A stretch of DNA of 64,000 nucleotides from positions 777-64,776 of the forward strand of contig DEIN01000017.1 of assembly GCA_002352465.1 (NCBI GenBank), in the 5' to 3' direction. Positions within the stretch are counted from its first letter, which is position 1. Every line of letters starts with the position of its first letter. Source of the stretch: Patescibacteria group bacterium UBA2773. Lineage in GTDB: Bacteria > Patescibacteriota > Minisyncoccia > Moranbacterales > DUUL01. The notes below the pieces were generated by a model, which was not told where the DNA came from, made no database searches, and worked only from the letters and a program-made list of their open reading frames with translations. The position numbers and the translations under genes are program-made. Shown piece after piece: positions 9,740 to 57,972 of the stretch.

Positions 9740-11023
9740 ATGAATGCTAAAAGAAATTTTCAAAAAATTAAAAATATTTATCATTTATTGAAAGCGATTA
9801 TTGCTAATTTTCGGTTTATGTTCCCTTCGAGAAAAATAACAGTGATTGGCGTGACAGGAACTAACGGTAAAACTACGACAGTCCAGATGATCGGGAAAGT
9901 TTTGGAGGCGACTGGGAGAAAGGTGGCGGTTTATTCCACTATTAACTTTAAAATTGGAGATGAGGAGGAAATTAATAAAACTAAATTTACTACTCAGTCA
10001 GCTTGGAGTTTGCAGAAATTTATTGCTAAAGCTCTTAAAAATAATTGTGAGTATTTGGTGCTGGAAACTTCTTCGCACGCTTTGGATCAATTTCGAGTTT
10101 GGGGAGTTGATTATAATATGGCGGTGGTAACTAATATCACTCGAGAGCATTTAGATTATCATTTGACGATGGCTGATTATCGAAAAACAAAATTGAAATT
10201 ATTTAAAACGGTTGCTAATTCTTGGCGAAGGACGACCAGAACGGCAATTATTAATCAAGATATGGAAAAATATCAAGATTTTATTCTGCCTAAAATGGAT
10301 GAGAATTTTTTGTATAGTTTGAAGTCGAAAAAAACAGAAGCAGAAAAAAATATTCAAATGACGGCTGAAAAAATATTAGCCAAAGGTTTTGAAAGCCAAT
10401 TTTTGGTTAATGGAACAGATTTTAAATTAAAATTACCAGGGAAGTTTAATATTGAGAACGCCTTGGTAGCGATTTGCGTTGGGGTCTCTCAAGGCATCGC
10501 GATGGACACAATCAGTAAGAAATTAGCAAAAATCGAAAGTATTCCAGGTCGAATGGATTTTGTGAAAAACAAAAAAGGACTCAAGATAATTGTCGATTAT
10601 GCTTTGACCCCTGATTCAATGGAACAAATTGGAGCAATGCTGAAAACTATTAAAAAACAAAGTGAGGCTAAATTGATTTGGGTTTTTGGCAGTTGCGGAA
10701 ACCGAGATCAAGGCAAAAGGCCAATTATGGGAGAAATCGTTTCTAGATTTGCTGATTATACAATTGTGACCAATGAAGATCCTTATGACGAGGATCCAGT
10801 CAAAATTATTGAAGCAATTGAGAGCGGGATCAAAAATAAAAATAAAGAAAAATTTGCTCGGATAGTTGATAGAAAAAAAGCCTTAAAGAAGGCTCTTGAA
10901 ATTGCGAAAAAGGGTGATGTGGTTTTGGTGACTGGCAAGGGGGCGGAAGAAAATATGTTGATTGGTTCTAAAAAAATTCCTTGGAATGACAAACGAGTTA
11001 TTCAAAAGATTTTGAATAATTAA
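9740..11023 (+). CDS. murE: Mur ligase family protein, MurE-like (UDP-MurNAc-tripeptide synthetase)
   Basis: P-loop GVTGTNGKTTT. The central and C-terminal Mur ligase domains are present (DYALTPDS..., FGSCGNRDQGKRPIMG). Confidence 0.6.
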   Translation: MNAKRNFQKIKNIYHLLKAIIANFRFMFPSRKITVIGVTGTNGKTTTVQMIGKVLEATGRKVAVYSTINFKIGDEEEINKTKFTTQSAWSLQKFIAKALKNNCEYLVLETSSHALDQFRVWGVDYNMAVVTNITREHLDYHLTMADYRKTKLKLFKTVANSWRRTTRTAIINQDMEKYQDFILPKMDENFLYSLKSKKTEAEKNIQMTAEKILAKGFESQFLVNGTDFKLKLPGKFNIENALVAICVGVSQGIAMDTISKKLAKIESIPGRMDFVKNKKGLKIIVDYALTPDSMEQIGAMLKTIKKQSEAKLIWVFGSCGNRDQGKRPIMGEIVSRFADYTIVTNEDPYDEDPVKIIEAIESGIKNKNKEKFARIVDRKKALKKALEIAKKGDVVLVTGKGAEENMLIGSKKIPWNDKRVIQKILNN

Positions 11024-11080
11024 ATTTTCAATAAACCAATTTTCAATTTGCAATCAATTTTCAATGATTTAATTTTCAAA
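11024..11080. repeat. AT-rich repeat family 2 units in reverse orientation (AATTTTCAAT)
   Basis: aattttcaataaaccaattttcaatttgcaatcaattttcaatgatttaattttcaaat. Confidence 0.5.
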
Positions 11081-38902: not shown

Positions 38903-38985
38903 AATTGAAAATTAAGTCATTGAAAATTGATTGCCTGTCTAGCCGAAGGCTTGCTGAGGTAGATAAATTGAAAATTGAAAATTCT
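38903..38985. repeat. AT-rich repeat family 2 (ATTGAAAATTGA-type units flanking a GC-rich core)
   Basis: ataattgaaaattaagtcattgaaaattgattgcctgtctagccgaaggcttgctgaggtagataaattgaaaattgaaaatt. Confidence 0.55.
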
Positions 38986-43489: not shown

Positions 43490-43630
43490 ATTTACAATTT
43501 ACAATTTACAATCAATTTTCAATTTAACAATTTACAATGACAAGCTTTGCTTGTTTAGGTTTGAAAATTGAAAATTAATTCATTGAAAATTCATTGAAAA
43601 TTGAAAATTGGTTTATTGAAAATTTGCTAG
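43490..43630. repeat. AT-rich repeat family 2 in inverted configuration (TTTACAA/AATTTTCAAT arm ... palindrome acaagctttgcttgt ... ATTGAAAATT arm)
   Basis: tttacaatttacaatttacaatcaattttcaattt...ttgaaaattgaaaattaattcattgaaaattcattgaaaattgaaaatt. Confidence 0.55.
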
Positions 43631-45269: not shown

Positions 45270-47360
45270 ATGAAAAAACAAAAAAACCTAGGAGTAAAAA
45301 AGAAAATAGTGAAGAAAATCAAAAATAAAAAATTAATTGAAAAGATTATCAAACGTGATGGTTCCATTGTTGAGTTTGATAAAAAGAAAATTAAAGAAGC
45401 GGTCTATAAGGCTTTTCGAGAAGCGGAAGAGGGAAGTTTGAAAGCGGCAGAGAACGTGATGAAAAAGGCGGTTCAGATGTTGAGTAAAAAAGCTCGACCG
45501 GGCTATATTCCCAACATTGAGGAAGTTCAAGACACGATTGAGCAAGTTTTGATGATTTTAGATTTTGAAAAAACTGCCAAGGCCTATATTCTTTATCGAG
45601 ATCAACGAAGCAAATTGCGAAACACCGAACGATCTTTGGATGACGCGGTTGATTTGGTCGATAAATATTTAGGGGAAATAGATTGGCAGGTTAAAGAAAA
45701 TTCCAATATGGCTTATTCCTTACAAGGACTGAATAACTATATTTCTTCAATTGTGAGTGGAAAATATTGGGTGGAAAGAGTTTACCCAAAGTCAATTAAA
45801 CGCGCTCACGAAGAGGGCAATTTGCATATCCATGATTTGGATAAAATTGCTTCTTATTGTTGCGGTTGGGATTTGCAAGATTTATTGACTCAAGGTTTTA
45901 CCGGCGTTTCTGGAAAAGTTTCTTGTAATCCACCAAAGCATTTGCGACCGGCTTTGGGGCAATTGGTTAATTTCTTTTATACTACTCAAGGAGAAGCGGC
46001 TGGGGCTCAAGCAGTTTCAAATTTTGATACTTTGTTGGCGCCTTTTGTTCGATACGATAAATTGGATTATAAGGCGGTGAAACAAGCGATGCAGGAATTC
46101 GTTTTTAATTTGAATGTTCCAACTCGAGTGGGGTTTCAAACTCCGTTTACTAATATTACCTTGGATTTGAATTGTCCCAAGATGTATAAGGATCAAAATG
46201 TTATTATTGGGGGAAAACCGCAAAAAGAAACTTATGGAGATTTTACGCATGAAATGAATATGCTTAATCAAGCTTTTGCCGATGTAATGAGCGAAGGGGA
46301 TGCCACTGGACGAGTTTTTACTTTTCCAATTCCAACCTATAATATTACCAAAAATTTCAATTGGGATGATAAAAATTTAGATAAAGTTTGGCAGATGACT
46401 GCTAAATATGGAATTCCCTATTTTGCTAATTTTGTTAATTCCGATATGGATCCAGAAGATGCGCGTTCAATGTGTTGTCGTTTGCGATTGGATAATCGAG
46501 AACTACATAAACGAATGGGAGGGTTGTTTGGTGCAGCACCTTTGACGGGTTCAATCGGAGTGGTGACGATTAATTTGCCTCGAATTGGTTATTTAGCCAA
46601 AGATAAGGCTGACTTTTTGAAACGATTAGGAAAATTAATGGATATTGCCAAGGAGAGTTTGGAAGTTAAAAGAAAAACGATTGAAGGCTTTACTCAATCA
46701 GGGTTATATCCTTATTCTAAATTTTATTTGAAAGATATTTTTAAACGAAGAGGTACTTATTGGGGAAATCACTTTTCCACGATTGGAACAATTGGGATGA
46801 ATGAAGCTTTGCTGAACTTAATCGGAGAAGACATTACAACCAAGAAAGGCGTTAAATTAGCAGAAGAAATTTTGGTATTTATGCGAGAAAGAATGGTAGA
46901 TTATCAAAAAGAGACTGGCAGTTTGTATAATTTAGAAGCCACACCAGCGGAAGGAACGAGTTATCGGTTAGCATTGAAAGACCAAAATCGATTCCCTAAA
47001 ATGATTTTTGCTAATTCTGATGCCGAAAAAGAAAATGCTACTCCTTATTATACCAATTCTTCTCAGCTACCAGTTGGATTTTCGGAAGATGCTTATGAAG
47101 CGATGGATTTACAAGATAATTTGCAAACTAAATATACGGGAGGTACAGTTTTTCACACTTTCTTAGGAGAAAAAGTGCAAGATATTGAAACGGTAAAATC
47201 TTTTGTGAAGAAAATTGCGCATGGTTATAAGATGCCTTATTTCACAATTTCTCCAACTTTCAGTGTTTGCCCGATTCACGGTTATTTAAATGGTGAGCAC
47301 AAGCAATGTCCGAAATGTTTGATTGAACAGAGTTGTGAGATTTATTCTAGGGTTTTATAA
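45270..47360 (+). CDS. nrdD: Anaerobic ribonucleoside-triphosphate reductase (class III) main body; it ends ...CPIHGYLNGEHKQCPKCLIEQSCEIYSRVL* just before the glycyl-radical Gly
   Basis: N-terminal ATP-cone, NrdD core, C-terminal Zn ribbon. The glycyl-radical motif is cut off after EIYSRV. Confidence 0.8.
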   Translation: MKKQKNLGVKKKIVKKIKNKKLIEKIIKRDGSIVEFDKKKIKEAVYKAFREAEEGSLKAAENVMKKAVQMLSKKARPGYIPNIEEVQDTIEQVLMILDFEKTAKAYILYRDQRSKLRNTERSLDDAVDLVDKYLGEIDWQVKENSNMAYSLQGLNNYISSIVSGKYWVERVYPKSIKRAHEEGNLHIHDLDKIASYCCGWDLQDLLTQGFTGVSGKVSCNPPKHLRPALGQLVNFFYTTQGEAAGAQAVSNFDTLLAPFVRYDKLDYKAVKQAMQEFVFNLNVPTRVGFQTPFTNITLDLNCPKMYKDQNVIIGGKPQKETYGDFTHEMNMLNQAFADVMSEGDATGRVFTFPIPTYNITKNFNWDDKNLDKVWQMTAKYGIPYFANFVNSDMDPEDARSMCCRLRLDNRELHKRMGGLFGAAPLTGSIGVVTINLPRIGYLAKDKADFLKRLGKLMDIAKESLEVKRKTIEGFTQSGLYPYSKFYLKDIFKRRGTYWGNHFSTIGTIGMNEALLNLIGEDITTKKGVKLAEEILVFMRERMVDYQKETGSLYNLEATPAEGTSYRLALKDQNRFPKMIFANSDAEKENATPYYTNSSQLPVGFSEDAYEAMDLQDNLQTKYTGGTVFHTFLGEKVQDIETVKSFVKKIAHGYKMPYFTISPTFSVCPIHGYLNGEHKQCPKCLIEQSCEIYSRVL

Positions 47361-47466
47361 TGAAATGAGGGTCTGCACTAAAAACAAATTATCTTCGAAG
47401 AGTGATTGGAAACAGTTCCATCGAGGGGTTCGAAGTTTTTATATATAATAAATAAAAACAAATAAA

Positions 47467-47703
47467 ATGACAAAAACAATTCCAAAAAATATTGTTTGTA
47501 AAGATTGTGGAAAAAAAATTCAAGCTGGTGATGCCAATGTTGGTTATTGGAAAAAAGAAGATGTTTATCGTTGTGAAAATTGCACTAATAAATTATTTGG
47601 CACTGAAGTGTATTCTAGGATTGTGGGTTATATCCGACCAGTCAAGCAGTGGAATGTGGGAAAATCGGCTGAATTCAACGATCGAGTTATGTTTAAGGCT
47701 TAA
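47467..47703 (+). CDS. Stand-alone NrdD C-terminal module (Zn ribbon plus glycyl-radical motif EVYSRIVGYIRPV..WNVGK..E)
   Basis: 78-aa ORF with CKDCGKK..CENC, then SRIVGYIRPVKQWNVGKSAEFNDR, matching the NrdD glycyl-radical signature (RVxGY..P...WN.GK..E). It lies 106 bp after the main ORF and is flanked by inverted repeats (ggggttcgaa / ttcgaacccc). Confidence 0.6.
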   Translation: MTKTIPKNIVCKDCGKKIQAGDANVGYWKKEDVYRCENCTNKLFGTEVYSRIVGYIRPVKQWNVGKSAEFNDRVMFKA

Positions 47704-49373: not shown

Positions 49374-49437
49374 ATAATTGAAAATTTTAAAATTGATCAT
49401 TGATTGAAAATTGAAAATTGATCATTGTAAATTATTT
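49374..49437. repeat. AT-rich repeat family 2 (ATTGAAAATTGA units) upstream of the smc-like gene
   Basis: ttgataattgaaaattttaaaattgatcattgattgaaaattgaaaattgatcattg. Confidence 0.5.
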
Positions 49438-49438
49438 T

Positions 49439-51673
49439 ATGTTTGTTGAAAAAATAGAAATATCCGGGTTTAAGTCTTTCGCTAAAAAAACAATTTTGGA
49501 TTTTTCGGGTGGAAAAAATTTGAAAAGCGGGGTCACTTGCGTGGTTGGTCCCAATGGGAGTGGAAAATCCAATGTTTCGGACGCTCTGCGCTGGGTGATT
49601 GGGGAAAAGTCGGTGAAAAATTTGCGAGGTAATAAAAGAGAAGATGTGATCTTCGCTGGCTCTTCAACCAAATCTCAATTGGGTTGTGCTCAAGTTTCAG
49701 TTTTTTTTGATAATTCTAAAAAACGATTTGATATTGATTATAGTCAGGTTGTAATTACACGAAAAATTTATCGAGATGGGGAAAATCATTATTTGATTAA
49801 TAACAGCAAGGTTAAGCTATTTGATTTGATGAATTTGCTTTCTCGGGCGGGAATTGGTCATGGTAATTATACGATTGTCAATCAAGGAATGACGGACCAA
49901 ATTCTCTTGTCAAGCCCGGTGGAGCGAATGGGATTTTTGGAAGATGCAGCGGGGGTGAAAGAATTTCAATTGAAGAAAAATAAAAGTGTTCGAAGAATAA
50001 AAAAAACTCGGATTAATATTGAAAAAGCCGAATCTTTGATGCGAGAGATTGAGCCGGAGCTGAGAGTTTTGAAAAGTCAAAGTCGAAAAATCGAAAAAGC
50101 GCAAAAAACGCGAGAAGAGTTGGCGGAGAAAAGAGCTCAATATTTTGCAGTTAGGCTGAATAATATTGAAAGCAATCAAAGTAAGAATGGGTTGGAATTA
50201 AAAAGAATTGAAGAACAAATCGAGGGTAGCCAGAAGAAAATCAAAGCCATTAATCAAAAACTTCAAGAAAGCGATAACAGTTCAATTCAAGAACAGAACA
50301 AGCTGATTGCCGGAATTGAAAAAGAGAAAGCTCAATTAGAAAAAGAGCGGTACGAATTGGAGCGAATGGGTTTTAAGCAGGAAATCGAGTTAAAATCACT
50401 GCAAGAAAAAATTGAGCAATTTGGTAAGGAGGAAATAATTTTGGTTGACCGAGGCTATATTTTGACTAAATTGCAGAAAATCAAAGACGAATTGGACAGT
50501 CAAGTTGGGAAATCGCTAACGGCCAAATTGATCTTTAAAATCAATGATTTATTGCAAGAAATTCAAGCTGGGAAAGCGGTTAAAAGCAAAGCGAGCGAAG
50601 AAACTGAAAAACAAAAAGTTTTGTTGAATAAGGATTTAGATAAAATCAAGCAAGAAGCTCAACAAAATTCAATTGAAATTGCTAATTGTAAACAAAAAAT
50701 AGCTGAGAAAAATCAAGCAGTTCAAACGATTAATGCTGAAAATCAGAAGAAACAAGAATCTAGAGTAGATTTTAAGGATCAGTTAAGAAGAGAGCAGTTT
50801 GAAGTGGAAAAAGCGGAGAGATATTTGGAACATTTAAGATTAGATAAAACGAAATTAGAGCAAGAATTGGTTGAAATTAAAAAAGATATTCAAGCTAACT
50901 TTAACGGTAATTTGGATGATTTGAGAAAAATTTCTTGTAATCTGAATTTGGAAAATTTGAAAATGCTAATTGAGAAACTTAGTTGGCAGTTAGAACAAAT
51001 TAGAGAGATTGATACGGGGGTAATAGAAGAATATCGAGAATTGCAGGAAAAATATGATTTCTTGGAGAAAGAATCAAAAGATTTGAAGTTGACTTTGACT
51101 GATTTGAACCGAGTGATTGTAGAGATGGATAAAACTATCAAGAATCGATTGGCTCAAGCTTTTACGGCGATCAACAAAGAATTTATGATTTATTTCAAAT
51201 TGATATTTTCGGGTGGTTCGGCTAAGTTGGAAAAAATTAAAATTGAAAAAAGAAAATTTTTGGATGAGCTGGAGGACGAGGGCGAAAAAGATCCAGAAGA
51301 TTTGACTGAATTTGGAATTGATATTAAAGTTAACCCTCCGGGAAAGCGGATTAATAACTTGAATATGCTTTCGGGCGGAGAGCGAACTTTGACTTCGATT
51401 GCTTTGCTGTTTGCTTTGATTTCCTATAACCCACCACCGTTTGCTTTTTTGGATGAAATTGAGGCTAATTTGGATGAGGCTAATGCCAAGCGGTTTAGTC
51501 GAATTTTGAAAAAACTTTCTCATAAAACTCAGTTTATTTTGGCCACTCATTCTCGGGAAGTGATGCGGATGGCGGATATTCTGTATGGAATTACGATGGA
51601 TTCTGGGGGATATTCGAAAGTTTTCTCGGTGAGTCTAGGACAAATTAAAGAGGATGGAGATATTAAAAAATAG
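49439..51673 (+). CDS. smc: SMC-family ATPase, compact (~745 aa) with no recognisable hinge domain
   Basis: SMC N-terminal head (FKSFA...GPNGSGKSN..DALRWVIGEKSVKNLRG..EDVIFAGS) and C-terminal head (LSGGERTLTSIALLFAL...FLDEIEANLDEAN...ATHS). The ~500-aa middle is entirely coiled-coil-like. Confidence 0.7.
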   Translation: MFVEKIEISGFKSFAKKTILDFSGGKNLKSGVTCVVGPNGSGKSNVSDALRWVIGEKSVKNLRGNKREDVIFAGSSTKSQLGCAQVSVFFDNSKKRFDIDYSQVVITRKIYRDGENHYLINNSKVKLFDLMNLLSRAGIGHGNYTIVNQGMTDQILLSSPVERMGFLEDAAGVKEFQLKKNKSVRRIKKTRINIEKAESLMREIEPELRVLKSQSRKIEKAQKTREELAEKRAQYFAVRLNNIESNQSKNGLELKRIEEQIEGSQKKIKAINQKLQESDNSSIQEQNKLIAGIEKEKAQLEKERYELERMGFKQEIELKSLQEKIEQFGKEEIILVDRGYILTKLQKIKDELDSQVGKSLTAKLIFKINDLLQEIQAGKAVKSKASEETEKQKVLLNKDLDKIKQEAQQNSIEIANCKQKIAEKNQAVQTINAENQKKQESRVDFKDQLRREQFEVEKAERYLEHLRLDKTKLEQELVEIKKDIQANFNGNLDDLRKISCNLNLENLKMLIEKLSWQLEQIREIDTGVIEEYRELQEKYDFLEKESKDLKLTLTDLNRVIVEMDKTIKNRLAQAFTAINKEFMIYFKLIFSGGSAKLEKIKIEKRKFLDELEDEGEKDPEDLTEFGIDIKVNPPGKRINNLNMLSGGERTLTSIALLFALISYNPPPFAFLDEIEANLDEANAKRFSRILKKLSHKTQFILATHSREVMRMADILYGITMDSGGYSKVFSVSLGQIKEDGDIKK

Positions 51674-51792: not shown

Positions 51793-52479
51793 ATGCTAGA
51801 ACTTTCGATTGTTGCTACGCCGATTGGCAATTTGGCTGATATAACCTTACGAGCCTTGGAAATCCTCAGAGAGGCTGATTTTGTGTTGTGTGAGGACACT
51901 AGAAAGACCAAAGTCTTAATGGATAAGTATGAAATTGTAAAGCCTTTGAAAGCCTATCATCAACAAAGCACTGAGGGACAAATTCATAAAATTTTGGAGG
52001 CAATGAAAGAGGTCGAGAAAGTGGCGTTGGTGACTGATGCGGGAACTCCTGGAATTTCTGATCCGGGTAATCTTTTGATTGAAAGAGTTTTGGCTTTTTT
52101 TGGCGACGAAATAAAAATTACGCCAATTCCTGGAGCCAACGCTTTGAGTGCTTTGGTTTCGGTGGCCGGAATTAATATGACTCGCTTTACTTTCATGGGT
52201 TTTCCACCTAATAAAAAAGGCCGAGAAAAATTCTTTCGAGAAGTTTTGGCATCTGAATATCCGGTTATCTATTACGAATCTCCTTATCGTTTGATGAAAA
52301 ATTTAGATTTGATGGAAGGGCTTTTTGAAGAACTTGGAATTTCTAAACGGGTGATTTTAGGGCGAGAAATCACCAAAATCTTCGAAGAAATCAAACGAGG
52401 AGAAGTTGTTGAAGTAAAAAAATATTATGAAGAAAATCCGGGGAAAGTTAAAGGAGAAATTGTGGTGTTAATTTATTAG
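51793..52479 (+). CDS. rsmI: 16S rRNA (cytidine1402-2'-O)-methyltransferase RsmI
   Basis: LSIVATPIGNLADITLRALEIL..., DAGTPGISDPG; 228 aa. Confidence 0.85.
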   Translation: MLELSIVATPIGNLADITLRALEILREADFVLCEDTRKTKVLMDKYEIVKPLKAYHQQSTEGQIHKILEAMKEVEKVALVTDAGTPGISDPGNLLIERVLAFFGDEIKITPIPGANALSALVSVAGINMTRFTFMGFPPNKKGREKFFREVLASEYPVIYYESPYRLMKNLDLMEGLFEELGISKRVILGREITKIFEEIKRGEVVEVKKYYEENPGKVKGEIVVLIY

Positions 52480-52487
52480 ATAAAAAT

Positions 52488-53860
52488 ATGTTCAATAAAA
52501 GAAAAATTTTTCAAACAATTAATGTTTTTGGGGTGTCAAATGAGCTTATAGATTCGTATGTTGAAAGAAGTGAAGTCGACGAGGAGTTTAATCGGGCCCT
52601 TACTCTTAAGAAACACATAATTGTTTTCGGGTCTTCAAAACAAGGCAAAACTTCATTAATCAAAAAACATCTTCCATTAAATGATTATGTTAAGGTTGAG
52701 TGTACGCCAGATCAAAAAAAAAGGATATCTATAAATCAATTCTTCGACAGATAAATGTTGAAATTGTGGAGTCAAGAAATAATATGGTAAGTGGATCTTT
52801 GAGCGCTGAAGTTAATTCAAAATTACAATTAAAGTTACCTCTTGTTGGCGGTGGTGATATCGGCACAAAAGTGGGTACTACCCGAAAAGAAGAAAACGGG
52901 AAAACATTTAAAACCGTGGCGTATGATATTAGCATTGCTCAGGATATGATTGAAATACTTCAACAGTCAAGTTTTTCAAAATATATATTACTTGAAAATT
53001 TTCATTATCTAGGAGAAGAAACTCAGAAAGAGCTGTCGTTCGATTTAAGAACTTTTCAAGATGTAGGGGTTAACTTTATTATTCTTGGTATTTGGCGAGA
53101 AAAAAACAGATTAGCACAATACAATGGTGATCTTCAGGATAGAATGATTGAAATTCCAGTTGAACCATGGTCTGAAGAGTCGCTATCTTCTGTTATTGAA
53201 AAAGGTTCAAGCCTTTTGAACATCGAAATGAAAGAATTAGCGAAGCGAATAGTTACTTCTTCTTTTGACAGCGTGGGTGTGTTGCAAGAGCTATGCAAAG
53301 AGGCCTGTCTTGCTGCTGGTACAAAAGAAACAATGACCGTAAAGACAAAAATTAGTAAAAAAGAGCTTGATAAAGCGATACAAAAAAAATTAGAAGATTA
53401 TTCAAGTCGACATATACGATCCATGGAGTCATTATCTACTGCTTCACAAAAAACAACGGGAGAGGGTGAAGTAGCACTTTTTATTCCTTATTATTTTGTT
53501 AAAATGCTACTCTCGATGAATTTTGAAGACATTGTGAGCGGTATAAAAAGGGACAAACTACACAAAGAAATAAATAAAATACATCATAGAAAAGAGGGGG
53601 TAAGGCCAGGAGATATCAGCAATTTTTTACATAGAATTATTCATCAGCAAATTAGTAAGAACGTAATACCACCTCTATTGGATTACGACAGAAGCATAAG
53701 GACGCTAAAAGTCATTGACTCTACATTTTATTTTTTTCTAAGACATGCGGATAGAGGTACTATTCTTAAAGAGATTGATGATCCAGTTAATTTATTTTCT
53801 AGCGCTCAAGGTAAGCAATATCAATCAAAAACAACACAAACTAAACTGCCCAATTTGTAA
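52488..53860 (+). pseudogene. P-loop NTPase (PF01637 'archaeal-type ATPase'-like) split into two ORFs by a frameshift in an A9 tract
   Basis: ORF1 (52488–52754) carries ..YVERSEVDEEFNRAL..IVFGSSKQGKTSL (Walker A). ORF2 (to 53860) continues the same protein, with YILLENFHYL as a Walker-B-like segment. Changing A9 at 52714–52722 to A10 fuses them (..TPDQKKKDIYKS..). Confidence 0.5.
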
Positions 53861-54124
53861 TAAAAAGATGTTTGTAATATCTTATCAGACCTCATGGATA
53901 GATGAGTTTGGGGTCAGATAAATTAAAAATAACAGCTCGTGGTGACGAGCTGTTATTGGTGTTTAGGATTTTGAAAATTATAATTTACCTGCCTGCCGGT
54001 AGACAAGGTTCAGAATTTGGAGTTTTGGATTTGTAATTTGAGCTTAAAAATATTTTTTGTAAAAAAACCGCCTCGACCTTTTGGGGTGTTGGCGGAAGTA
54101 GTTGAGCTACTTAGTTCCGGTATT

Positions 54125-54388
54125 TTATAATAATTTGCCGTCGTAATCTACTAGACTACGTTCCATTATTACTCCTTCGGGAAAGAAAAATTTTTCAAAT
54201 CCTCCCGGGAAAGCCATTTCCACAATTAAATAAGGAGAAGTTTTCATTTGTTTTTGATCGGTGATTTTAATTAAATCGCCGTGTTCAAAAAGCCAATTTT
54301 GAGCGGATTGTTCTGTGAAAAATCCGATGGTCTTTTCCAGCATAACGCCTTCTGGATTGTTTGAAGGTCTGATAGTGTTTTTTTGCAT
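54125..54388 (-). CDS. Small hypothetical protein (87 aa)
   Basis: A strong RBS (aaaaaaGGAGGactt) sits before the ATG. Confidence 0.4.
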   Translation of the reverse strand: MQKNTIRPSNNPEGVMLEKTIGFFTEQSAQNWLFEHGDLIKITDQKQMKTSPYLIVEMAFPGGFEKFFFPEGVIMERSLVDYDGKLL

Positions 54389-54490
54389 AAGTCCTCCTTT
54401 TTTGGTGGTTTCTTGGCTATTATTAGCCGGTTATCTAAAATATCATATTTTTAAATTATGTCTAGAATAAATTGATGAATTAAGAATAAT

Positions 54491-54521
54491 TTTCTACCAT
54501 TCTTCAGTGAATGGTAGAAAA
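54491..54521. repeat. 31-bp element containing a perfect 9-bp-stem hairpin (ctaccattc-ttcagt-gaatggtag), copy 1 (intergenic)
   Basis: ttttctaccattcttcagtgaatggtagaaa. A second copy lies at 57544–57574. Confidence 0.7.
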
Positions 54522-54635
54522 GCAAAACGGGGTATTGGTTGGATTGAATTGAGTTTTTGGATAATTGTTGGTGTAATAGATAAGCAATAAAATATTTTTA
54601 AAGTTGATATTAATCAAAAAATAAAGGAGGGCGAA

Positions 54636-54839
54636 ATGACTAATAAGACTGATAAAAAAATAAGGAAAAGGCAGGAAATTTTTCAAGATATGGTCGCTGA
54701 TGGTAGGGCTGTCGTTGTGAAACGAGTTCCTCTTTCCATGGAAGATCTAGCATTTTTTAAGGAAAAAATGGCACGGCTTAAAGAACGATTAAGAAAGGGT
54801 AGATATTTCAAAAATAATTCTACGCAAAAATTTGGTTAA
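54636..54839 (+). CDS. Small basic hypothetical protein (67 aa)
   Basis: RBS aaaggaggg 6 nt upstream; a terminator follows. Confidence 0.4.
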   Translation: MTNKTDKKIRKRQEIFQDMVADGRAVVVKRVPLSMEDLAFFKEKMARLKERLRKGRYFKNNSTQKFG

Positions 54840-54861
54840 ATAATCAAATTGCGTAAAAACT

Positions 54862-54884
54862 GGGGAACTTTGGTTCCCCTTTTT
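54862..54884 (+). terminator. Rho-independent terminator
   Basis: ggggaac-tttg-gttcccc followed by ttttt. Confidence 0.7.
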
Positions 54885-55146
54885 AATATTGTTTAATAAA
54901 ATTAATTTCTTAATTAAAGGTTTTTAATGTTCAAATAATTTGCGACAATAGCTTATTTAATAAGTCACTTTGGTTTTATTTTTGATTATAAATTTACGTT
55001 GATACTTCAACGTATCAACGTAAAATAATTTTTAAATTGGTCGTTTGAATATTTGTTGAGGTTTTTAAGTGTTGCGTTATCGAAAAAACTTGTCAGACCT
55101 GTTGGGAATGACGAGTTTTATTTTTGGGGTGAATGATCTAATTAAA

Positions 55147-55431
55147 CTAAAGCCATTCTGTTAATCGTTTTATCGTTTTTTCTATTAAACAACGATCTGG
55201 TTCTTTTTCCTGCAATTCGTTGTGAATCTTAGAGACGTGAAGCAGGACATTCAATTTTCTATCGCCTAATGCAGTACCAGGAGGAATAAATTTTGATGAT
55301 TGATAAAATTCAAGTGCTTCAATTAGATCAATTTCAATTTCTCTGGGCATTATTTTTTGTTTGGGAAAAAGGTCGTGGATTGTGTGCCCATTGTTTTCTA
55401 CTTTTTCAATCAATTCTCTAAATTCTGACAT
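55147..55431 (-). CDS. Small hypothetical protein (94 aa), possible Rx6H HEPN-like motif
   Basis: RBS aaaaaaGGAG before the ATG. The sequence GDRKLNVLLHVS is a weak match. The 36-bp conserved upstream element is also present. Confidence 0.35.
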   Translation of the reverse strand: MSEFRELIEKVENNGHTIHDLFPKQKIMPREIEIDLIEALEFYQSSKFIPPGTALGDRKLNVLLHVSKIHNELQEKEPDRCLIEKTIKRLTEWL

Positions 55432-55522
55432 GAAAATCTCCTTTTTTGGGGTTAAGATACCTTTATCTAAATAATTTTAAATTATAGTGCTTTCTAATTA
55501 AATTATCAATAGAATTTGCATT

Positions 55523-55558
55523 ATGTCAATCACAAATAAAAATGTCCCCTGTTTTCGT
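55523..55558. repeat. 36-bp perfect direct repeat, copy 1 (upstream of the 94-aa gene)
   Basis: atgtcaatcacaaataaaaatgtcccctgttttcgt. On the minus strand it contains TTGACAT (-35-like). Confidence 0.8.
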
Positions 55559-55772
55559 CAAATTAAAATGTTGTCTTTTATTAGTTATGGCTCGACTTCA
55601 TTGGTGTTCACTTTAATAGGAGTAGGGATACTTTTGAATATTTCGAAATAGGTGAAGATGTAGTTTTTGAAGGTAAAGTTAAATTCGCCGCAAGATGTTT
55701 ACATCTTGCGGCGAATTAAGGTTTCGATTATTTTCTTAAAAGTTTAATCCTAATTTGGCAAATATCAGGATC

Positions 55773-56459
55773 TTACTCAGATTCTTCCATAATAGAAAGA
55801 ATTTGATTTTCATCAGTTAAATCTGAAATCCCAGCTTGGCAAACATCAGAATCCCATCCAAATTTTTTCATAACAAAAATAAGTTGGTTTTCATCAGTTA
55901 AACCCGGAATCCCAGCTTGGCAAACAGCAGGATTCCACCCAGATTCTTTCATAATAGAAAAAAGTTGGTTTGGGGTTTTTTCTTGTAACTTTAAACCCGG
56001 AATCCCAGCGTTGCAAATTCTCCAATTCCACCCAGATTTTTTCATAATAGAAAAAAGTTGGTTTGGGGTTTTTTCTCGTAACTTTAAACCCGGAATCCCA
56101 GCTTGGCAAACATCAGAATCCCATCCAGATTTTTTCATAACAGAAATAATTTGGTTTTCATCAGTCAAACCCGGAATCCCAGCTTGGCAAACAGCAGGAT
56201 TCCACCCAGATTTTTTCATAACAAAAAGAATTTGGTTTTCATCAGTTAAACCCGGAATCCCAGCTTGGCAAATATCAGGATTCCATCCAGATTCTTTCAT
56301 AATAGAAAGAATTTGGTTTGGGGTTTTTTCTTGTAACTTTAAACCCGGAATCCCAGCTTGGAAAATTCTCCAATGCCACCAATATTTTTTCATAATAGAA
56401 AAAAGTTGATTTGGGGTTTTAAGAATTTTAAATAATTTTTTCGCAAGGTCTAATTCCAT
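55773..56459 (-). CDS. Tandem-repeat protein (7–8 copies of a ~30-aa unit ..ENQILSIMKKSGWNPAVCQAGIPGL..)
   Basis: 228-aa ORF with RBS aaaaaaGGAG. Its ~90-bp DNA repeats explain the overlapping alternate-frame ORFs in the track. Confidence 0.55.
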   Translation of the reverse strand: MELDLAKKLFKILKTPNQLFSIMKKYWWHWRIFQAGIPGLKLQEKTPNQILSIMKESGWNPDICQAGIPGLTDENQILFVMKKSGWNPAVCQAGIPGLTDENQIISVMKKSGWDSDVCQAGIPGLKLREKTPNQLFSIMKKSGWNWRICNAGIPGLKLQEKTPNQLFSIMKESGWNPAVCQAGIPGLTDENQLIFVMKKFGWDSDVCQAGISDLTDENQILSIMEESE

Positions 56460-56563
56460 TGTTTTCTCCTTTTTTGTTTGGGTAAAGATAAAATTTCAAA
56501 GTTGCTTCAATTGAAACATAAATGGTAAATTACTTTTTTGAAGATGTCAAGGGATTGTATGAG

Positions 56564-56599
56564 ATGTCAATCACAAATAAAAATGTCCCCTGTTTTCGT
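56564..56599. repeat. 36-bp perfect direct repeat, copy 2 (upstream of the repeat-protein gene)
   Basis: Identical to 55523–55558. Confidence 0.8.
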
Positions 56600-56772
56600 A
56601 ATATAAAAATTAATCATAGTATTAATTTTAATATTAATCTTGGAAGGTGTTTCGAGATATTTAAAAAATAAAAACTCGCTATTACGATTTTTTTTCTGAA
56701 CTTTAATTTTTGGCCGGAAATTAAAGTTTAAAATATGGCAAAGATTAGTAAAGAGTTATCTCTGGCGGTTTG

Positions 56773-56805
56773 GAAATTGAAAATTGAATCATTGAAAATT
56801 GAATT
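56773..56805. repeat. AT-rich repeat family 2 units
   Basis: gaaattgaaaattgaatcattgaaaattgaatt. Confidence 0.45.
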
Positions 56806-56841
56806 AAAGTTTATAATGCTCTCTGAGTGCAAAATTCAAAA

Positions 56842-57972
56842 TTAATTCTCAAAAATATTTTTGAGAATTTGCTCTCTTCGTTTTTTTTCGTTGAGGGAAA
56901 TAGAATCTTTGAGCTTGAAGGAGGCGGTGCCAGGGCGGGGGGAATATTTGTTGATGAAGGCTTCGGAATAGCCGATTTCTTTGAAAACTTTGACTGTTTC
57001 TTGAAAGTCTTTTTCGGTTTCGCCGGGGAAGCCAACGATGACGTCAGTGGAGAATTTGGCGGTGGGAATTTTCTCTCGAGTTTTTTTAATTAAATTTAAA
57101 TAATATTTTTGGGTATAGGGGCGGTTCATGGCTTTGAGGATTTTGTCACTGCCGGCTTGAATGGGGAGGTGAATTTCGTTGGGAATGTTTTCGTTTTGGG
57201 CGATAACGTTGATTAATTCGTCGGAATAATCTTTGGGATGAGAAGTTAAAAATTTAAATTTAATTTGGGGAAATTTTTGAGCGAGAGTTTTTAGAAGCTT
57301 TGGGAAAGTGGTTTTGCCGTTTTGGTAAGAGTTGACGTTTTGTCCTAAAAGTAAAACGGTTTTGTATTTTTTTTCGGCTAGTTTTTGAATTTCAGCTTCA
57401 ATTTCTTTGAAAGGTCGTGACCATTCTGGTCCGCGAGCATAGGGGACAATACAATAGGTGCAGAAATTGTTGCAACCGGTCATAATCGGCACCAAGGCAA
57501 AATCGGTTTTTTCATATTTCGGTTCGATTCTTAGATAACTATTTTTTCTACTATTCTTCAGTGAATGGTAGAAATTTGTTGATTTTGTTTTGTCGATTTT
57601 GCTGATTAATTCGGAGATTTTGGGGAAATCTTTGATGGCGATGAAAAGGTCGACTTTGTTTTTTAGTCTTTTTCGGAATTCTTCACGGTGGGCGAGACAA
57701 CCGGTGACGACTATAATTTGCTTTCTTTGAGAGTCTATTCCAAGGTACTTTCTCTTCCGTTGGAATTCGCCTTGTTTTTTGAAAACATTGTGAACGTGGC
57801 CATAGACTTTGTGTTCGGATATTAAACGCACTCCGCAAGTATTGAAAATCACCAAATCAGCCTGATCGATTTTGTCAGCTGGAGTGAAATTATTGGTTTC
57901 AAAAAAAGTCTTCATCCGTTCTGAATCGGAGAAATTCATTTGACAACCGAAAGTCTTAATAAAATATTTCAT
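56842..57972 (-). CDS. MiaB/RimO-like radical-SAM methylthiotransferase (tRNA-modifying, no TRAM domain evident)
   Basis: MTTase N-domain (FGCQMNFSDSE...NTCGVR), radical SAM CNNFCTYC. 376 aa. Confidence 0.75.
   Translation of the reverse strand: MKYFIKTFGCQMNFSDSERMKTFFETNNFTPADKIDQADLVIFNTCGVRLISEHKVYGHVHNVFKKQGEFQRKRKYLGIDSQRKQIIVVTGCLAHREEFRKRLKNKVDLFIAIKDFPKISELISKIDKTKSTNFYHSLKNSRKNSYLRIEPKYEKTDFALVPIMTGCNNFCTYCIVPYARGPEWSRPFKEIEAEIQKLAEKKYKTVLLLGQNVNSYQNGKTTFPKLLKTLAQKFPQIKFKFLTSHPKDYSDELINVIAQNENIPNEIHLPIQAGSDKILKAMNRPYTQKYYLNLIKKTREKIPTAKFSTDVIVGFPGETEKDFQETVKVFKEIGYSEAFINKYSPRPGTASFKLKDSISLNEKKRREQILKNIFEN
57544..57574. repeat. Hairpin-repeat copy 2, embedded in-frame in the MiaB-like linker region
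   Basis: ttttctactattcttcagtgaatggtagaaa (one mismatch in the stem) encodes ..YHSLKNSRKN.. on the minus strand. Confidence 0.7.

What the first reader, a model, noticed from the sequence alone, without database searches (positions are those of the whole stretch)
52488..56600. Accessory-looking block between rsmI and the MiaB-like gene: frameshifted P-loop ATPase, three small ORFs and a tandem-repeat protein sharing regulatory repeats
The housekeeping run (rnc, smc, rsmI ... miaB-like, thrS) is interrupted by ~4 kb of different character. First comes a ~455-aa P-loop ATPase of the archaeal-type (PF01637-like) family. It is broken by a frameshift in an A9 tract. Three small ORFs of 87, 67 and 94 aa follow on alternating strands, each with a strong GGAG RBS. 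Last is a 228-aa protein made of 7–8 tandem ~30-aa repeats.

Two of these genes carry an identical 36-bp element in their promoter regions. A hairpin repeat sits upstream of a third. The 94-aa protein has a possible Rx6H (HEPN-like) motif.

Islands of stand-alone ATPases with small partner proteins are frequent in defence and conflict systems. That makes this a candidate accessory, defence-like or phase-variable locus, not core metabolism.
Basis: partly seen in the sequence, partly recalled or inferred. Interest (0 to 1): 0.55.

Follow-up and report, generated by a model that had tools for sequence, protein, structure and literature searches.

The report
Accessory islet with frameshifted defence-candidate ATPase
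A 4.3-kb strain-specific insert between two housekeeping genes of a Patescibacteria (CPR) genome holds a frameshift-broken copy of a widely transferred, untested candidate anti-phage ATPase, four orphan genes and two leftover insertion-sequence ends; it is an ordinary accessory locus, not a new system.

Summary
Window 52479-56776 is lineage-specific. The three nearest relatives keep rnc-smc-rsmI-//-miaB-thrS, but carry only 0.6-1.2 kb of unrelated small ORFs at this spot.

The two ATPase ORFs are one gene, cut by a 1-nt deficit in an A9 tract; A10 restores the frame. The fused 457-aa protein matches PADLOC candidate family PDC-S59 end to end (E 2e-72). It keeps 116 of 118 family-invariant residues and models as an Orc1/Cdc6-like AAA+ ATPase with what looks like a C-terminal winged helix. 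Its homologues are solo genes with changing neighbours, sometimes beside restriction-modification or toxin-antitoxin genes, so the small ORFs are not conserved partners.

The "identical 36-bp regulatory element" is the right terminal repeat of an ISNCY-family insertion sequence. It is 98% identical to the end of a 1.47-kb IS in another low-GC genome and is present here as two solo ends.

The 87-, 67-, 94- and 228-aa genes are orphans with host-like codon usage. The HEPN motif is at chance level.

Verdict: an accessory islet holding a recently broken, possibly slippage-leaky, candidate defence gene plus IS scars. Modest interest.

The parts
51793..52479 (+). rsmI (16S rRNA C1402 2'-O-methyltransferase). 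It forms the left anchor of the variable spot; similarity to relatives stops at its stop codon.
   Evidence: TIGR00096 E 7e-55. blastn to L004/L005/L006 ends at 52475-52478.
52479..56776 (.). Lineage-specific segment of 4.3 kb. Relatives carry 0.6-1.2 kb of unrelated DNA here.
   Evidence: Composition is host-like: GC 32.4% against 32.9%, and 4-mer distance at the 49th percentile.
52488..52754 (+). N-terminal fragment (88 aa) of the PDC-S59-family AAA+ ATPase, carrying Walker A (GSSKQGKTS). It starts 8 nt after the rsmI stop and has no Shine-Dalgarno sequence of its own.
   Evidence: PADLOC profile positions 4-70, E 4e-15.
52714..52722 (+). A9 homopolymer, the site of the frame change. A10 (+1 A) or a -1 shift on A AAA AAA gives ...PDQKKKDIYKS..., matching homologues (...PDQQKEDIYKS...).
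   Evidence: It ties for the longest A/T run in the 64 kb. Homologue DNA reads GAT CAA CAA AAG GAA GAT, with no tract.
52700..53860 (+). C-terminal frame of the same ATPase (386-aa ORF). It holds the Walker B region (LLENFHYL), the lid and what appears to be a C-terminal winged-helix-like domain.
   Evidence: PADLOC profile positions 70-404, E 8e-53. AF2 model pLDDT 81. Foldseek hits to Orc1/Cdc6.
53928..53957 (.). 13-bp-stem hairpin after the ATPase gene; terminator-like.
   Evidence: -19.6 kcal/mol, z -6.9.
54125..54388 (-). Orphan gene o87 (87 aa), with a GGAGG ribosome-binding site.
   Evidence: Only one distant relative (77 aa, 39% identity, E 5e-8) among 1.8 billion representatives. Codon log-odds 0.31, host-like. 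No family hits.
54490..54521 (.). Perfect 13-bp inverted repeat in the divergent o87/o67 intergenic region. It could be an operator or a read-through terminator.
   Evidence: -17.5 kcal/mol, z -7.0.
54636..54839 (+). Orphan gene o67 (67 aa, basic), with an AGGAGG ribosome-binding site. It is followed by a GC-rich terminator at 54862-54879.
   Evidence: Only a non-significant excisionase-PHROG hit, E 0.037. Codon log-odds 0.24.
54993..55024 (.). Perfect 13-bp-stem hairpin downstream of o94 on the minus strand; terminator-like.
   Evidence: -17.1 kcal/mol, z -5.9.
55147..55431 (-). Orphan gene o94 (94 aa), with a GGAG ribosome-binding site.
   Evidence: The only match in 5.8 billion clusters is itself. 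No HEPN or other profile hit. Rx6H is at chance level. Codon log-odds 0.20.
55524..55571 (+). Solo ISNCY-family IS right end, copy 1. The terminus TGTCAA is at 55524 and the IS interior would lie to the right. Its outward-facing TTGACA is a possible -35 box for o94.
   Evidence: 48/49 nt identical to the IRR of the 1470-bp IS in L050. Alignment A2. Promoter scan gives TTGACA-16-GATAAT and TTGATA-17-TATAAT.
55675..55724 (-). Hairpin with 16 predicted pairs, about 50 nt after the rep228 stop; terminator-like.
   Evidence: I3; -26.4 kcal/mol, z -8.2.
55773..56459 (-). Orphan tandem-repeat gene rep228: 7.5 units of 27/31 aa with consensus NQ[LI]xS[IV]MK[KE]SGW-xxx-[VI]CQAGIPGL. It has no signal peptide. 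The DNA array spans 55755-56420.
   Evidence: No homologue. Unit lengths are multiples of 3 and it is the only stop-free frame, but there are 5 synonymous against 22 non-synonymous differences between the half-arrays. AF2 pLDDT 51, roughly one helix plus a loop per unit in that low-confidence model.
56565..56610 (+). Solo ISNCY-family IS right end, copy 2, in the same orientation as copy 1. It lies 14 nt upstream of rep228's TTGACA-17-TACCAT promoter-like site.
   Evidence: 91% over 47 nt to the L050 IRR.
56842..57972 (-). MiaB-family radical-SAM methylthiotransferase. It forms the right anchor; similarity to relatives resumes at 56777, 65 nt past its stop.
   Evidence: TIGR00089 E 1e-108.

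Best explanation
The region is a lineage-specific accessory islet in a variable spot between the convergent housekeeping genes rsmI and miaB of a Patescibacteria (Moranbacteria-like) genome. It is a collection of unrelated cargo, not one system.

(1) Directly behind rsmI sits a horizontally spread, solo-acting AAA+ ATPase of PADLOC candidate family PDC-S59. It has an Orc1/Cdc6-like ATPase module and what appears to be a C-terminal winged helix, so it is presumably an ATP-dependent DNA-binding switch; the family's anti-phage role is predicted, not demonstrated. In this lineage the codons Q-Q-K-E became an A10 run that has lost one A. As encoded, the gene therefore yields an 88-aa P-loop stub. 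Full-length protein can arise only through +1A transcriptional slippage, a -1 ribosomal slip on A AAA AAA, or DNA-level reversion. The break is recent or leaky, because nothing else in the gene has decayed.

(2) Four independently transcribed orphan genes follow: o87, o67, o94 and the tandem-repeat rep228. Each has its own ribosome-binding site and hairpin terminator, host-like codon usage and unknown function.

(3) The 36-47-nt sequence shared upstream of o94 and rep228 is the right terminal inverted repeat of an ISNCY-family insertion sequence, left as two solo ends. Each ends in an outward TTGACA and lies 14 nt from a -35-like hexamer, so it may contribute to transcription of the adjacent gene, but it was not built as a regulator site.

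Shown: the anatomy, family assignments, synteny and IS origin. Inferred: the function of the ATPase, the consequences of the frameshift and any promoter activity of the IS ends.
For: Synteny:
- L004, L005 and L006 (71-85% RsmI identity) have rnc-smc-rsmI-gap-miaB-thrS. None of the five block genes is present, and their gaps hold different small ORFs with no family hits.

ATPase:
- PADLOC PDC-S59 E 2.4e-72 over residues 9-422; the two fragments abut at profile position 70.
- More than 1400 homologues at about 50% identity across Bacteroidota, Cyanobacteria, Planctomycetota and Archaea, and on a conjugative Shewanella plasmid.
- Colinear alignment across the break, with 116 of 118 family-invariant residues kept, which is within the leave-one-out range of intact members.
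- AF2 pLDDT 81. Foldseek top hits are Orc1/Cdc6 (2qby, 1fnn, 2v1u), SSO1545 (2fna), CED-4, TnsC and RFC.
- The A9 is identical in Logan, ENA and JGI assemblies. Relatives have no A tract at the site.
- Neighbours of homologues vary: Eco47II RM, type I RM, TA pairs, unrelated genes.
- PDC families were defined by 'guilt by embedding' and are untested (bioRxiv 10.1101/2024.01.29.577857).

IS ends:
- The 19-mer core recurs in metagenomes.
- L050 carries a 1470-bp IS with about 54-bp imperfect inverted repeats and a split ISNCY transposase, NF033594 E 1e-60 and 3e-40.
- L045 is a complete 1553-bp IS with a 463-aa ISNCY transposase (371 bits, cutoff 250). It has the same TGT...GGGGACAT...GGGGACAT end architecture and at least 4 insertion sites.
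- Window copies are 98% and 91% identical to the L050 IRR, and similarity stops exactly at the TGTCAA terminus.

Orphan genes:
- No or almost no homologues.
- Codon log-odds 0.20-0.31 against a training mean of 0.31 +/- 0.08, with spurious ORFs at or below 0.06.
- Stable hairpins after each gene.
Against: - No experiment shows that PDC-S59 proteins defend against phage. In this window the gene is not next to any recognised defence gene.
- The four assemblies may derive from the same or related read sets, so the A9 consensus is reproducible but is not population-level evidence.
- No target-site duplication could be recognised around the L050 IS. The window has neither a transposase nor an inverted partner end, so how two same-orientation solo ends arose is unexplained.
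- The block has host-like composition, so it gives no independent signal of recent transfer.
- rep228 shows no excess of synonymous change between repeat copies, so its protein-coding status rests on frame preservation, the ribosome-binding site and codon usage only.
Confidence: 0.75

Rival explanations
1. The A9 tract is a working switch. The ATPase is a contingency (phase-variable) or slippage-dependent gene whose expression is tuned by tract length or by RNA polymerase/ribosome slippage, rather than a fresh pseudogene.
For: - The tract lies early in the coding region, just after Walker A, and ties for the longest homopolymer in the 64 kb.
- The rest of the gene is undecayed, with 116 of 118 invariant residues kept.
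- A AAA AAA is a classical -1 slippery heptamer, and a -1 shift gives exactly the homologue-length product.
- Rescue of poly(A)-interrupted genes by transcriptional slippage is documented: review PMC5009743, Citrobacter tssM PMC4256274, Blochmannia PMC3017870.
Against: - All four available assemblies show only A9.
- The tract is not conserved in any relative examined, so it is not an inherited recoding signal.
- No stimulatory hairpin or Shine-Dalgarno-like element is evident next to the tract (reading).
- A9 in a 33% GC genome is not extraordinary; there are 47 runs of 8 or more in the window.
Confidence: 0.2
2. The five genes form one multi-gene conflict or defence system: the ATPase is the sensor, the small proteins are partners or effectors (o94 as a HEPN RNase), and the repeat protein is a specificity module.
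For: - The genes are physically clustered in an accessory islet.
- The ATPase belongs to a defence-candidate family.
- The repeat protein has a variable three-residue patch in each unit.
Against: - PDC-S59 is a single-gene candidate, and the homologues examined share no partner genes.
- The genes sit on alternating strands, each with its own promoter-like site and terminator.
- The four small proteins have no PADLOC, Pfam, NCBIfam or significant PHROG hit.
- The HEPN motif is at chance level.
- IS scars separate o94 and rep228 from the rest.
Confidence: 0.05
3. The shared 36-nt element is a dedicated cis-regulatory site that co-regulates o94 and rep228.
For: - The two copies are exactly identical and lie at similar distances (91 and 104 nt) upstream of the two start codons, in the same orientation.
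- GACAT motifs are spaced about 19-20 nt apart, and the element sits where an UP element or activator site would be (reading).
Against: - The same sequence forms the terminal inverted repeat of complete ISNCY elements in other genomes. Similarity ends precisely at the TGT terminus, and the copy number there is high.
- The repeated GGGGACAT motifs are explained as transposase-binding sites.
- No regulator gene is identifiable in the block.
Confidence: 0.1
4. rep228 is not a protein-coding gene but a tandem DNA repeat (minisatellite) that happens to be open in one frame.
For: - Between the two 348-nt half-arrays there are 5 synonymous against 22 non-synonymous codon differences, and mismatches are not enriched at third positions (15/7/8).
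- A repeat unit that is stop-free in one frame automatically gives a long ORF.
- There is no homologue anywhere, and the AF2 model is poor.
Against: - Both unit lengths (81 and 93 nt) and the 12-nt indel keep the frame.
- It has an ATG with a consensus GGAG ribosome-binding site, a non-repeat N-terminus, a stop at the array's end followed by a hairpin of 16 predicted pairs, and a promoter-like site.
- Codon log-odds of 0.31 equal the mean of bona fide genes, and all other frames are negative.
Confidence: 0.12
5. The frameshift is a sequencing or assembly artefact and the gene is intact (A10) in the organism.
For: Homopolymers are error-prone, and the rest of the gene looks perfectly functional.
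Against: Four assemblies made with different pipelines (this window, Logan, ENA k141, JGI) all give A9 within 100% identical sequence. The remark that short-read platforms rarely miscall A9 consistently is my own knowledge, and the platform of these runs was not checked.
Confidence: 0.05

Closest known systems
PADLOC phage-defence candidate PDC-S59 (single-gene candidate from 'guilt by embedding', Payne et al., bioRxiv 10.1101/2024.01.29.577857)
   Same: Full-length profile match (E 2.4e-72, profile positions 4-404 of 428). Walker A and family-invariant residues are retained. The gene stands alone. Some homologues lie beside RM or TA genes.
   Different: The gene is split by a frameshift here. 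It is not embedded in or adjacent to any recognised defence system, and it sits behind a housekeeping rRNA methyltransferase. The family itself has never been tested, and no paper mentions PDC-S59.
Archaeal Orc1/Cdc6 initiators and the SSO1545-type 'archaeal ATPase' (PDB 2qby, 1fnn, 2v1u, 2fna)
   Same: The predicted architecture is an AAA+ base plus lid plus what looks like a C-terminal winged-helix-like domain. These are the best Foldseek matches (E 1e-7 to 1e-6, TM 0.41-0.53).
   Different: Sequence identity is only 9-12%. There is no Pfam PF01637 or Cdc6 hit; only AAA_22, just above threshold. A roughly 55-residue low-confidence insert sits between Walker A and Walker B. The phyletic pattern is patchy and HGT-like, unlike a replication factor.
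ISNCY-family insertion sequences (NCBIfam NF033594; related to IS481/IS3; IS1202-type elements of about 1.5 kb with TGT termini, bioRxiv 10.1101/2022.12.17.520857)
   Same: The window's 47-nt repeats align base for base with the terminal inverted repeats of complete elements (L050 at 1470 bp, L045 at 1553 bp). They share the TGT terminus and two sub-terminal GGGGACAT motifs.
   Different: Only solo right ends are present, twice and in direct orientation. There is no transposase, left end or recognisable target duplication. The ISNCY subgroup was not determined.
Genes interrupted in poly(A) tracts and rescued by transcriptional or ribosomal slippage (Blochmannia/Buchnera genes, Citrobacter rodentium tssM; PMC3017870, PMC4256274, PMC5009743)
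   Same: A single-base frame error lies inside an A9 run in an AT-rich reduced genome, and the ORF is otherwise intact.
   Different: There are no transcript or protein data here, and rescue is only an inference.

Membership tests
PADLOC PDC-S59 candidate family | Full-length match to the family HMM | tested here: met
   E 2.4e-72, 242 bits, protein 9-422 against profile 4-404/428. Intact homologues P0003 and P0094 score similarly, 230 and 225 bits.
PADLOC PDC-S59 candidate family | One uninterrupted gene encoding the whole protein | tested here: not met
   The gene is split at the A9 tract into 88-aa and 386-aa ORFs covering profile positions 4-70 and 70-404.
PADLOC PDC-S59 candidate family | Genomic association with known defence systems (the basis on which PDCs were proposed) | tested here: not met
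   In the window the neighbours are rsmI and orphan genes with no PADLOC hits. Some homologues elsewhere are next to RM or TA genes.
PADLOC PDC-S59 candidate family | Anti-phage activity | not testable with these tools
   The source paper lists the 145 PDCs as untested.
AAA+ ATPase, Orc1/Cdc6-like architecture | P-loop (Walker A GxxxxGKT/S) and a Walker B-type hhhh[DE] strand | tested here: met
   G48-S-S-K-Q-G-K-T55 is invariant. I-L-L-E170-N-F-H has invariant N171, F172 and H173.
AAA+ ATPase, Orc1/Cdc6-like architecture | AAA+ base plus lid plus winged-helix fold | tested here: met
   AF2 pLDDT 81.4, pTM 0.75. Top Foldseek hits are 2qby_A, 1fnn_A, 2v1u_A and 2fna_A. The winged-helix reading of residues ~330-430 is my interpretation of the helix and beta-hairpin pattern.
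AAA+ ATPase, Orc1/Cdc6-like architecture | Sequence-level membership of PF01637 (archaeal ATPase) or Cdc6 families | tested here: not met
   Pfam at E<=1 gives only AAA_22 (28.5 bits, cutoff 27), with sub-threshold TniB and nSTAND6 hits. The PDB profile search finds nothing below E 0.1.
HEPN domain (for the 94-aa protein) | Rx4-6H catalytic motif | tested here: inconclusive
   RKLNVLLH is present, but such a string occurs in 46% of shuffles of the same protein.
HEPN domain (for the 94-aa protein) | Match to a HEPN-family profile, or a partner such as a minimal nucleotidyltransferase | tested here: not met
   No Pfam, PADLOC or NCBIfam hit at E<=0.1-1; the only PHROG hit is a non-significant DNA-binding-protein family at E 0.049. 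No PDB sequence hit. No nucleotidyltransferase gene in the block.
HEPN domain (for the 94-aa protein) | Four-helix up-down HEPN fold | not tested
With no homologues, a model would probably have been unreliable.
ISNCY-family IS terminal repeat | Alignment with the terminal inverted repeats of complete elements, sharing the terminus | tested here: met
   48/49 and 43/47 nt identical to the L050 IRR. Invariant TGTCA...AATGTC.CCT...CGT holds across six ends, and flanks diverge at the terminus. The complete elements are L050 5659-7128 and L045 1-1553.
ISNCY-family IS terminal repeat | Transposase of the family encoded between the ends | tested here: not met
   tblastn of the L050 transposase against the window finds nothing below E 1. 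This is met in L050 (NF033594 E 1e-60 and 3e-40) and L045 (371 bits). The window copies are therefore solo ends.
ISNCY-family IS terminal repeat | Inverted partner end and target-site duplication | tested here: not met
   Degenerate-pattern searches find only the two direct copies. No duplication was recognisable around the L050 element (reading).
Phase-variable (contingency) gene | Homopolymer tract within the 5' part of the coding sequence | tested here: met
   A9 at codons 76-79 of 457.
Phase-variable (contingency) gene | Tract-length polymorphism within or between populations | not testable with these tools
   Only consensus assemblies are available, and all show A9. Reads cannot be inspected.
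Programmed -1 ribosomal frameshift | Slippery heptamer in the right frame | tested here: met
   C.AA AAA AAA AGG contains A AAA AAA in the zero frame, and a -1 shift yields the homologue-like sequence.
Programmed -1 ribosomal frameshift | Conservation of the shift site among homologues | tested here: not met
   L002 and L003 homologues are single ORFs with CAA CAG AAA GTT and CAA CAA AAG GAA at the site. All 119 other listed homologues are 425-473-aa single ORFs.

The most novel reading that the evidence does not exclude
The A9 tract is a real expression switch, by DNA-level phase variation or RNA polymerase slippage, on a PDC-S59 defence ATPase in an episymbiotic CPR bacterium. The IS-end-flanked orphan rep228 is a recently expanded, diversifying repeat protein (a variable three-residue patch in each 27/31-aa unit, mostly non-synonymous differences) that acts as a new kind of modular binding or specificity protein in the same conflict locus.
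Probability: 0.08. Interest if true: 0.6.

Novelty: new member of a known kind. Interest (0 to 1): 0.3.

Why it matters
To my knowledge (not checked here), CPR/Patescibacteria genomes are small and little is known about how they resist phage. This locus shows that a broadly mobile, still untested candidate defence ATPase (PDC-S59) reaches these genomes. Here it is caught either just after inactivation or in a slippage-dependent state.

It also gives a concrete caution: an exact repeat upstream of two genes looked like a shared operator but is the scar of an insertion sequence.

Practically, the PDC-S59 family is very well conserved (about 50% identity across phyla, 116 invariant residues). It has an Orc1/Cdc6-like fold and no visible effector domain, which makes it a reasonable target for experimental testing. 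This particular locus adds little beyond one more, broken, member.

Tried and rejected
- Homologue searches for rep228 found none at E<=0.01. The search for o94 found only itself.
- The exhaustive representative search for o87 found one 77-aa relative plus weak matches to a repeat motif in 600-839-aa proteins.
- Viral-contig scans for all four orphan proteins and for the element core found nothing.
- An Rfam scan of 52000-57200 at E<=1 found nothing.
- PDB sequence searches for the four orphans found nothing significant; the best was E 0.012 to an unrelated CBS domain.
- The AF2 model of rep228 from a single sequence had pLDDT 51, too poor for a fold search.
- 'PDC-S59' appears neither in the paper library nor in the supplements held for the PDC paper.
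- Compositional foreignness is rejected: GC and tetranucleotides are host-like.
- A TniB/TnsC-type transposition ATPase linked to the IS ends was considered, because of weak TniB/TnsC similarity. It is rejected because ISNCY elements here encode a single transposase, and because the examined PDC-S59 homologues have no adjacent transposase; the nearest is an IS3-family one about 2.5 kb away on the Shewanella plasmid.
- A MITE or second inverted end in the window was not found.
- An hmmsearch with a repeat-unit profile over all six-frame ORFs of the window and 57 loci found no second copy of the rep228 repeat.

Full report
**Observation.** The run at 52714-52722 is A9. Inserting one A fuses the 88-aa and 386-aa ORFs into a 457-aa protein. 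That protein aligns without gaps across the junction to intact 425-457-aa homologues...VECTPDQKKKDIYKSILRQ... against ...VECTPDQQKEDIYKSILRQ....

The two fragments match abutting parts of one profile, positions 4-70 and 70-404 of 428. GGAG or GGAGG lies 5-8 nt upstream of the start codons of the 87-, 67-, 94- and 228-aa ORFs (sequence). The 228-aa ORF consists of seven complete units of 27 or 31 aa plus a partial one. At DNA level the periods are 81, 93 and 348 nt.

The 36-nt element is exact at 55523-55558 and 56564-56599, with none expected by chance. Similarity extends to 47 nt. Perfect 13-bp-stem hairpins lie at 54490-54521 and 54993-55024, and further strong hairpins follow the ATPase, o67 and rep228.

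**Is the block accessory?** A search with RsmI found 34 loci. The three closest are labelled Moraniibacteriota or mislabelled CPR MAGs, at 71-85% RsmI identity. All three keep rnc-smc-rsmI-gap-miaB-thrS.

Their gaps are 0.6-1.2 kb and hold different small ORFs with no family hits. None of the five block genes is detectable there. Nucleotide similarity to the nearest relative stops at the rsmI stop codon (52478) and resumes at 56777, 65 nt beyond the miaB stop.

So 52479-56776 is lineage-specific cargo in a variable spot between convergent housekeeping genes. It is not compositionally foreign. GC is 32.4% against 32.9% for the window, and the tetranucleotide distance sits at the 49th percentile of equal-sized windows.

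**The ATPase.**
- The fused protein matches PADLOC PDC-S59 (E 2.4e-72, near full length). In Pfam it hits only AAA_22, just above threshold.
- PDC families are 145 untested candidates. They were proposed because members were found embedded in BREX, DISARM or type I RM loci. No paper or held supplement mentions PDC-S59.
- The family is large and unusually conserved. More than 1400 hits were found, with about 50% identity between this CPR protein and members from Bacteroidota, Cyanobacteria, Planctomycetota and Archaea. One copy sits on a conjugative Shewanella plasmid. This pattern is typical of horizontally moving accessory genes.
- An AF2 model (pLDDT 81, pTM 0.75) is most similar to archaeal Orc1/Cdc6, the SSO1545 'archaeal ATPase', CED-4, TnsC and RFC subunits. 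I read this as an AAA+ base and lid plus a C-terminal winged-helix-like domain, with a poorly modelled insert at residues 92-146. No nuclease or other effector domain is visible.
- In seven homologue loci the neighbours are all different: Eco47II RM, type I RM, two TA pairs, and unrelated genes. The protein therefore acts alone, and the small ORFs of this window are not its conserved partners.

**The frameshift.**
- Relatives read GAT CAA CAA AAG GAA GAT or CAA CAG AAA GTT at the site, so the homopolymer is a novelty of this lineage. A10 would give the family-length protein, and the genome has A9.
- Four assemblies from three further pipelines are 100% identical to the window and show the same A9.
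- The fused protein keeps 116 of the 118 positions that are invariant in 13 intact homologues. That is within the 0-3 losses seen when each intact member is left out in turn.
- The break is therefore either very recent or tolerated. Full-length protein could still be made by +1A transcriptional slippage or by a -1 ribosomal slip on A AAA AAA. Both are documented for poly(A)-interrupted genes elsewhere (PMC5009743, PMC4256274, PMC3017870).
- Phase variation cannot be tested without reads.

**The shared element.**
- Its 19-nt core has exact matches in ten metagenome stretches. Several of these may be chance, by my own rough estimate for a 19-mer in a collection of this size.
- In L050 (35% GC) the match extends to 49 nt (98% identity to window copy 1). 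There it forms one end of a 1470-bp element with about 54-bp imperfect inverted repeats. The element encloses two ORFs that together cover an ISNCY-family transposase, NF033594 E 1e-60 and 3e-40.
- Five GC-rich contigs of another metagenome share a related sequence near or at one contig end and diverge from each other exactly after ...TTGACA.
- One of them, L045, is a complete 1553-bp IS. It has TGT...ACA termini, the same two sub-terminal GGGGACAT motifs and an intact 463-aa ISNCY transposase (371 bits against a cutoff of 250).
- An alignment of six ends shows invariant TGTCA...AATGTC.CCT...CGT and unrelated flanks. TGT termini and about 1.5-kb size agree with published descriptions of IS1202-type/ISNCY elements.
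- The window has no transposase, no inverted partner and no further copy. The two copies are therefore solo right ends in direct orientation.
- Each terminus is itself an outward TTGACA and lies 14 nt from a second -35-like hexamer with a good -10: o94 has TTGATA-17-TATAAT and rep228 has TTGACA-17-TACCAT. The scars may influence transcription, but their origin is transpositional.

**The orphan genes.**
- o94 matches only itself in 5.8 billion clusters. rep228 matches nothing. o87 has a single 77-aa relative at 39% identity. None has viral relatives or a significant hit in any family library, and none has a PDB sequence match.
- Their codon usage is that of the host. Log-odds are 0.20-0.31 against 0.31 +/- 0.08 for long genes and 0.06 or lower for overlapping spurious ORFs. 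Each has its own ribosome-binding site and hairpin, so they are probably real, independently transcribed genes.
- The Rx6H 'HEPN' motif of o94 occurs in 46% of shuffles.
- rep228's repeat lengths are multiples of three, but the two half-arrays differ by 22 non-synonymous and only 5 synonymous codon changes. Variation concentrates in a three-residue patch after the conserved GW. The single-sequence AF2 model is unreliable (pLDDT 51) and suggests roughly one helix plus a loop per unit. Its function is unknown, and a non-coding reading is not fully excluded.

**Verdict.** The block is accessory and contains a member of a candidate defence family with a homopolymer frameshift. It is a patchwork (broken solo ATPase, four orphans, two IS scars) and not an ATPase-plus-partners system. 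The 'regulatory repeats' are IS ends and the HEPN idea has no support. It is a new, damaged member of known kinds and of modest interest.

Noticed in passing
window 11019-11080, 38904-38980, 43510-43613, 49403-49423, 56776-56804; L004 11617-11645; L005 10827-10866 and 11928-11956: The motif ATTGAAAATTGAA(T/A) occurs in tandem clusters in several intergenic regions. One cluster forms the right edge of the lineage-specific block. In relative L005 an inverted pair brackets that genome's own variable segment. It could be a regulator site, a REP-like element or a recombination hotspot.
   Followed up: partly
L045 1-1553 (Ga0315268_10300753); L043, L044, L047, L048 contig ends: L045 is a complete 1553-bp GC-rich ISNCY element. 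It has a 463-aa transposase and the same end architecture as the window's repeats, and it is inserted at four or more sites in that metagenome.
   Followed up: yes
window 55504-55524 and 56545-56565; L050 5640-5660: In all three low-GC insertions a -35-like hexamer (TTGATA, TTGACA, TTGACA) lies exactly 14 nt outside the IS terminus, 20 nt start to start from the terminal TGTCAA. This may be a target preference for end-like or promoter sequences, or a coincidence.
   Followed up: partly
L050 5977-7024: The ISNCY transposase of the low-GC element is itself split into 224-aa and 112-aa ORFs, and no target-site duplication is recognisable. That copy may also be decaying.
   Followed up: partly
window 49418-51673 and 56842-57972: SMC is only 751 aa. 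The MiaB-family protein (376 aa) stops at profile position about 358-365 of 429-437, which by my own inference means the C-terminal TRAM part is missing. Both features are shared by relatives L004-L006, so they are lineage traits rather than damage.
   Followed up: no
window about 45270-47700 (L001 2505-4938): The anaerobic ribonucleotide reductase NrdD is called as a 696-aa ORF followed by a separate 78-aa NRDD-family ORF. This may be a split or a frameshift at the C-terminus.
   Followed up: no
window 54125-54388 (o87 residues 45-72): The segment SPYLIVEMAFPGGFEKFFF resembles the repeated motif SPYLAxDNAYPGRFKKWEF of 600-839-aa repeat proteins P0124 and P0125. The match is weak, and its score is inflated by the repeats in the targets.
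   Followed up: partly
L057 (Shewanella baltica plasmid pSBP2_mcr4, 21410-22711): A 44%-identical PDC-S59 homologue sits on a conjugative MOBF plasmid next to parAB, and a mer operon interrupted by an IS3-family element lies nearby.
   Followed up: partly
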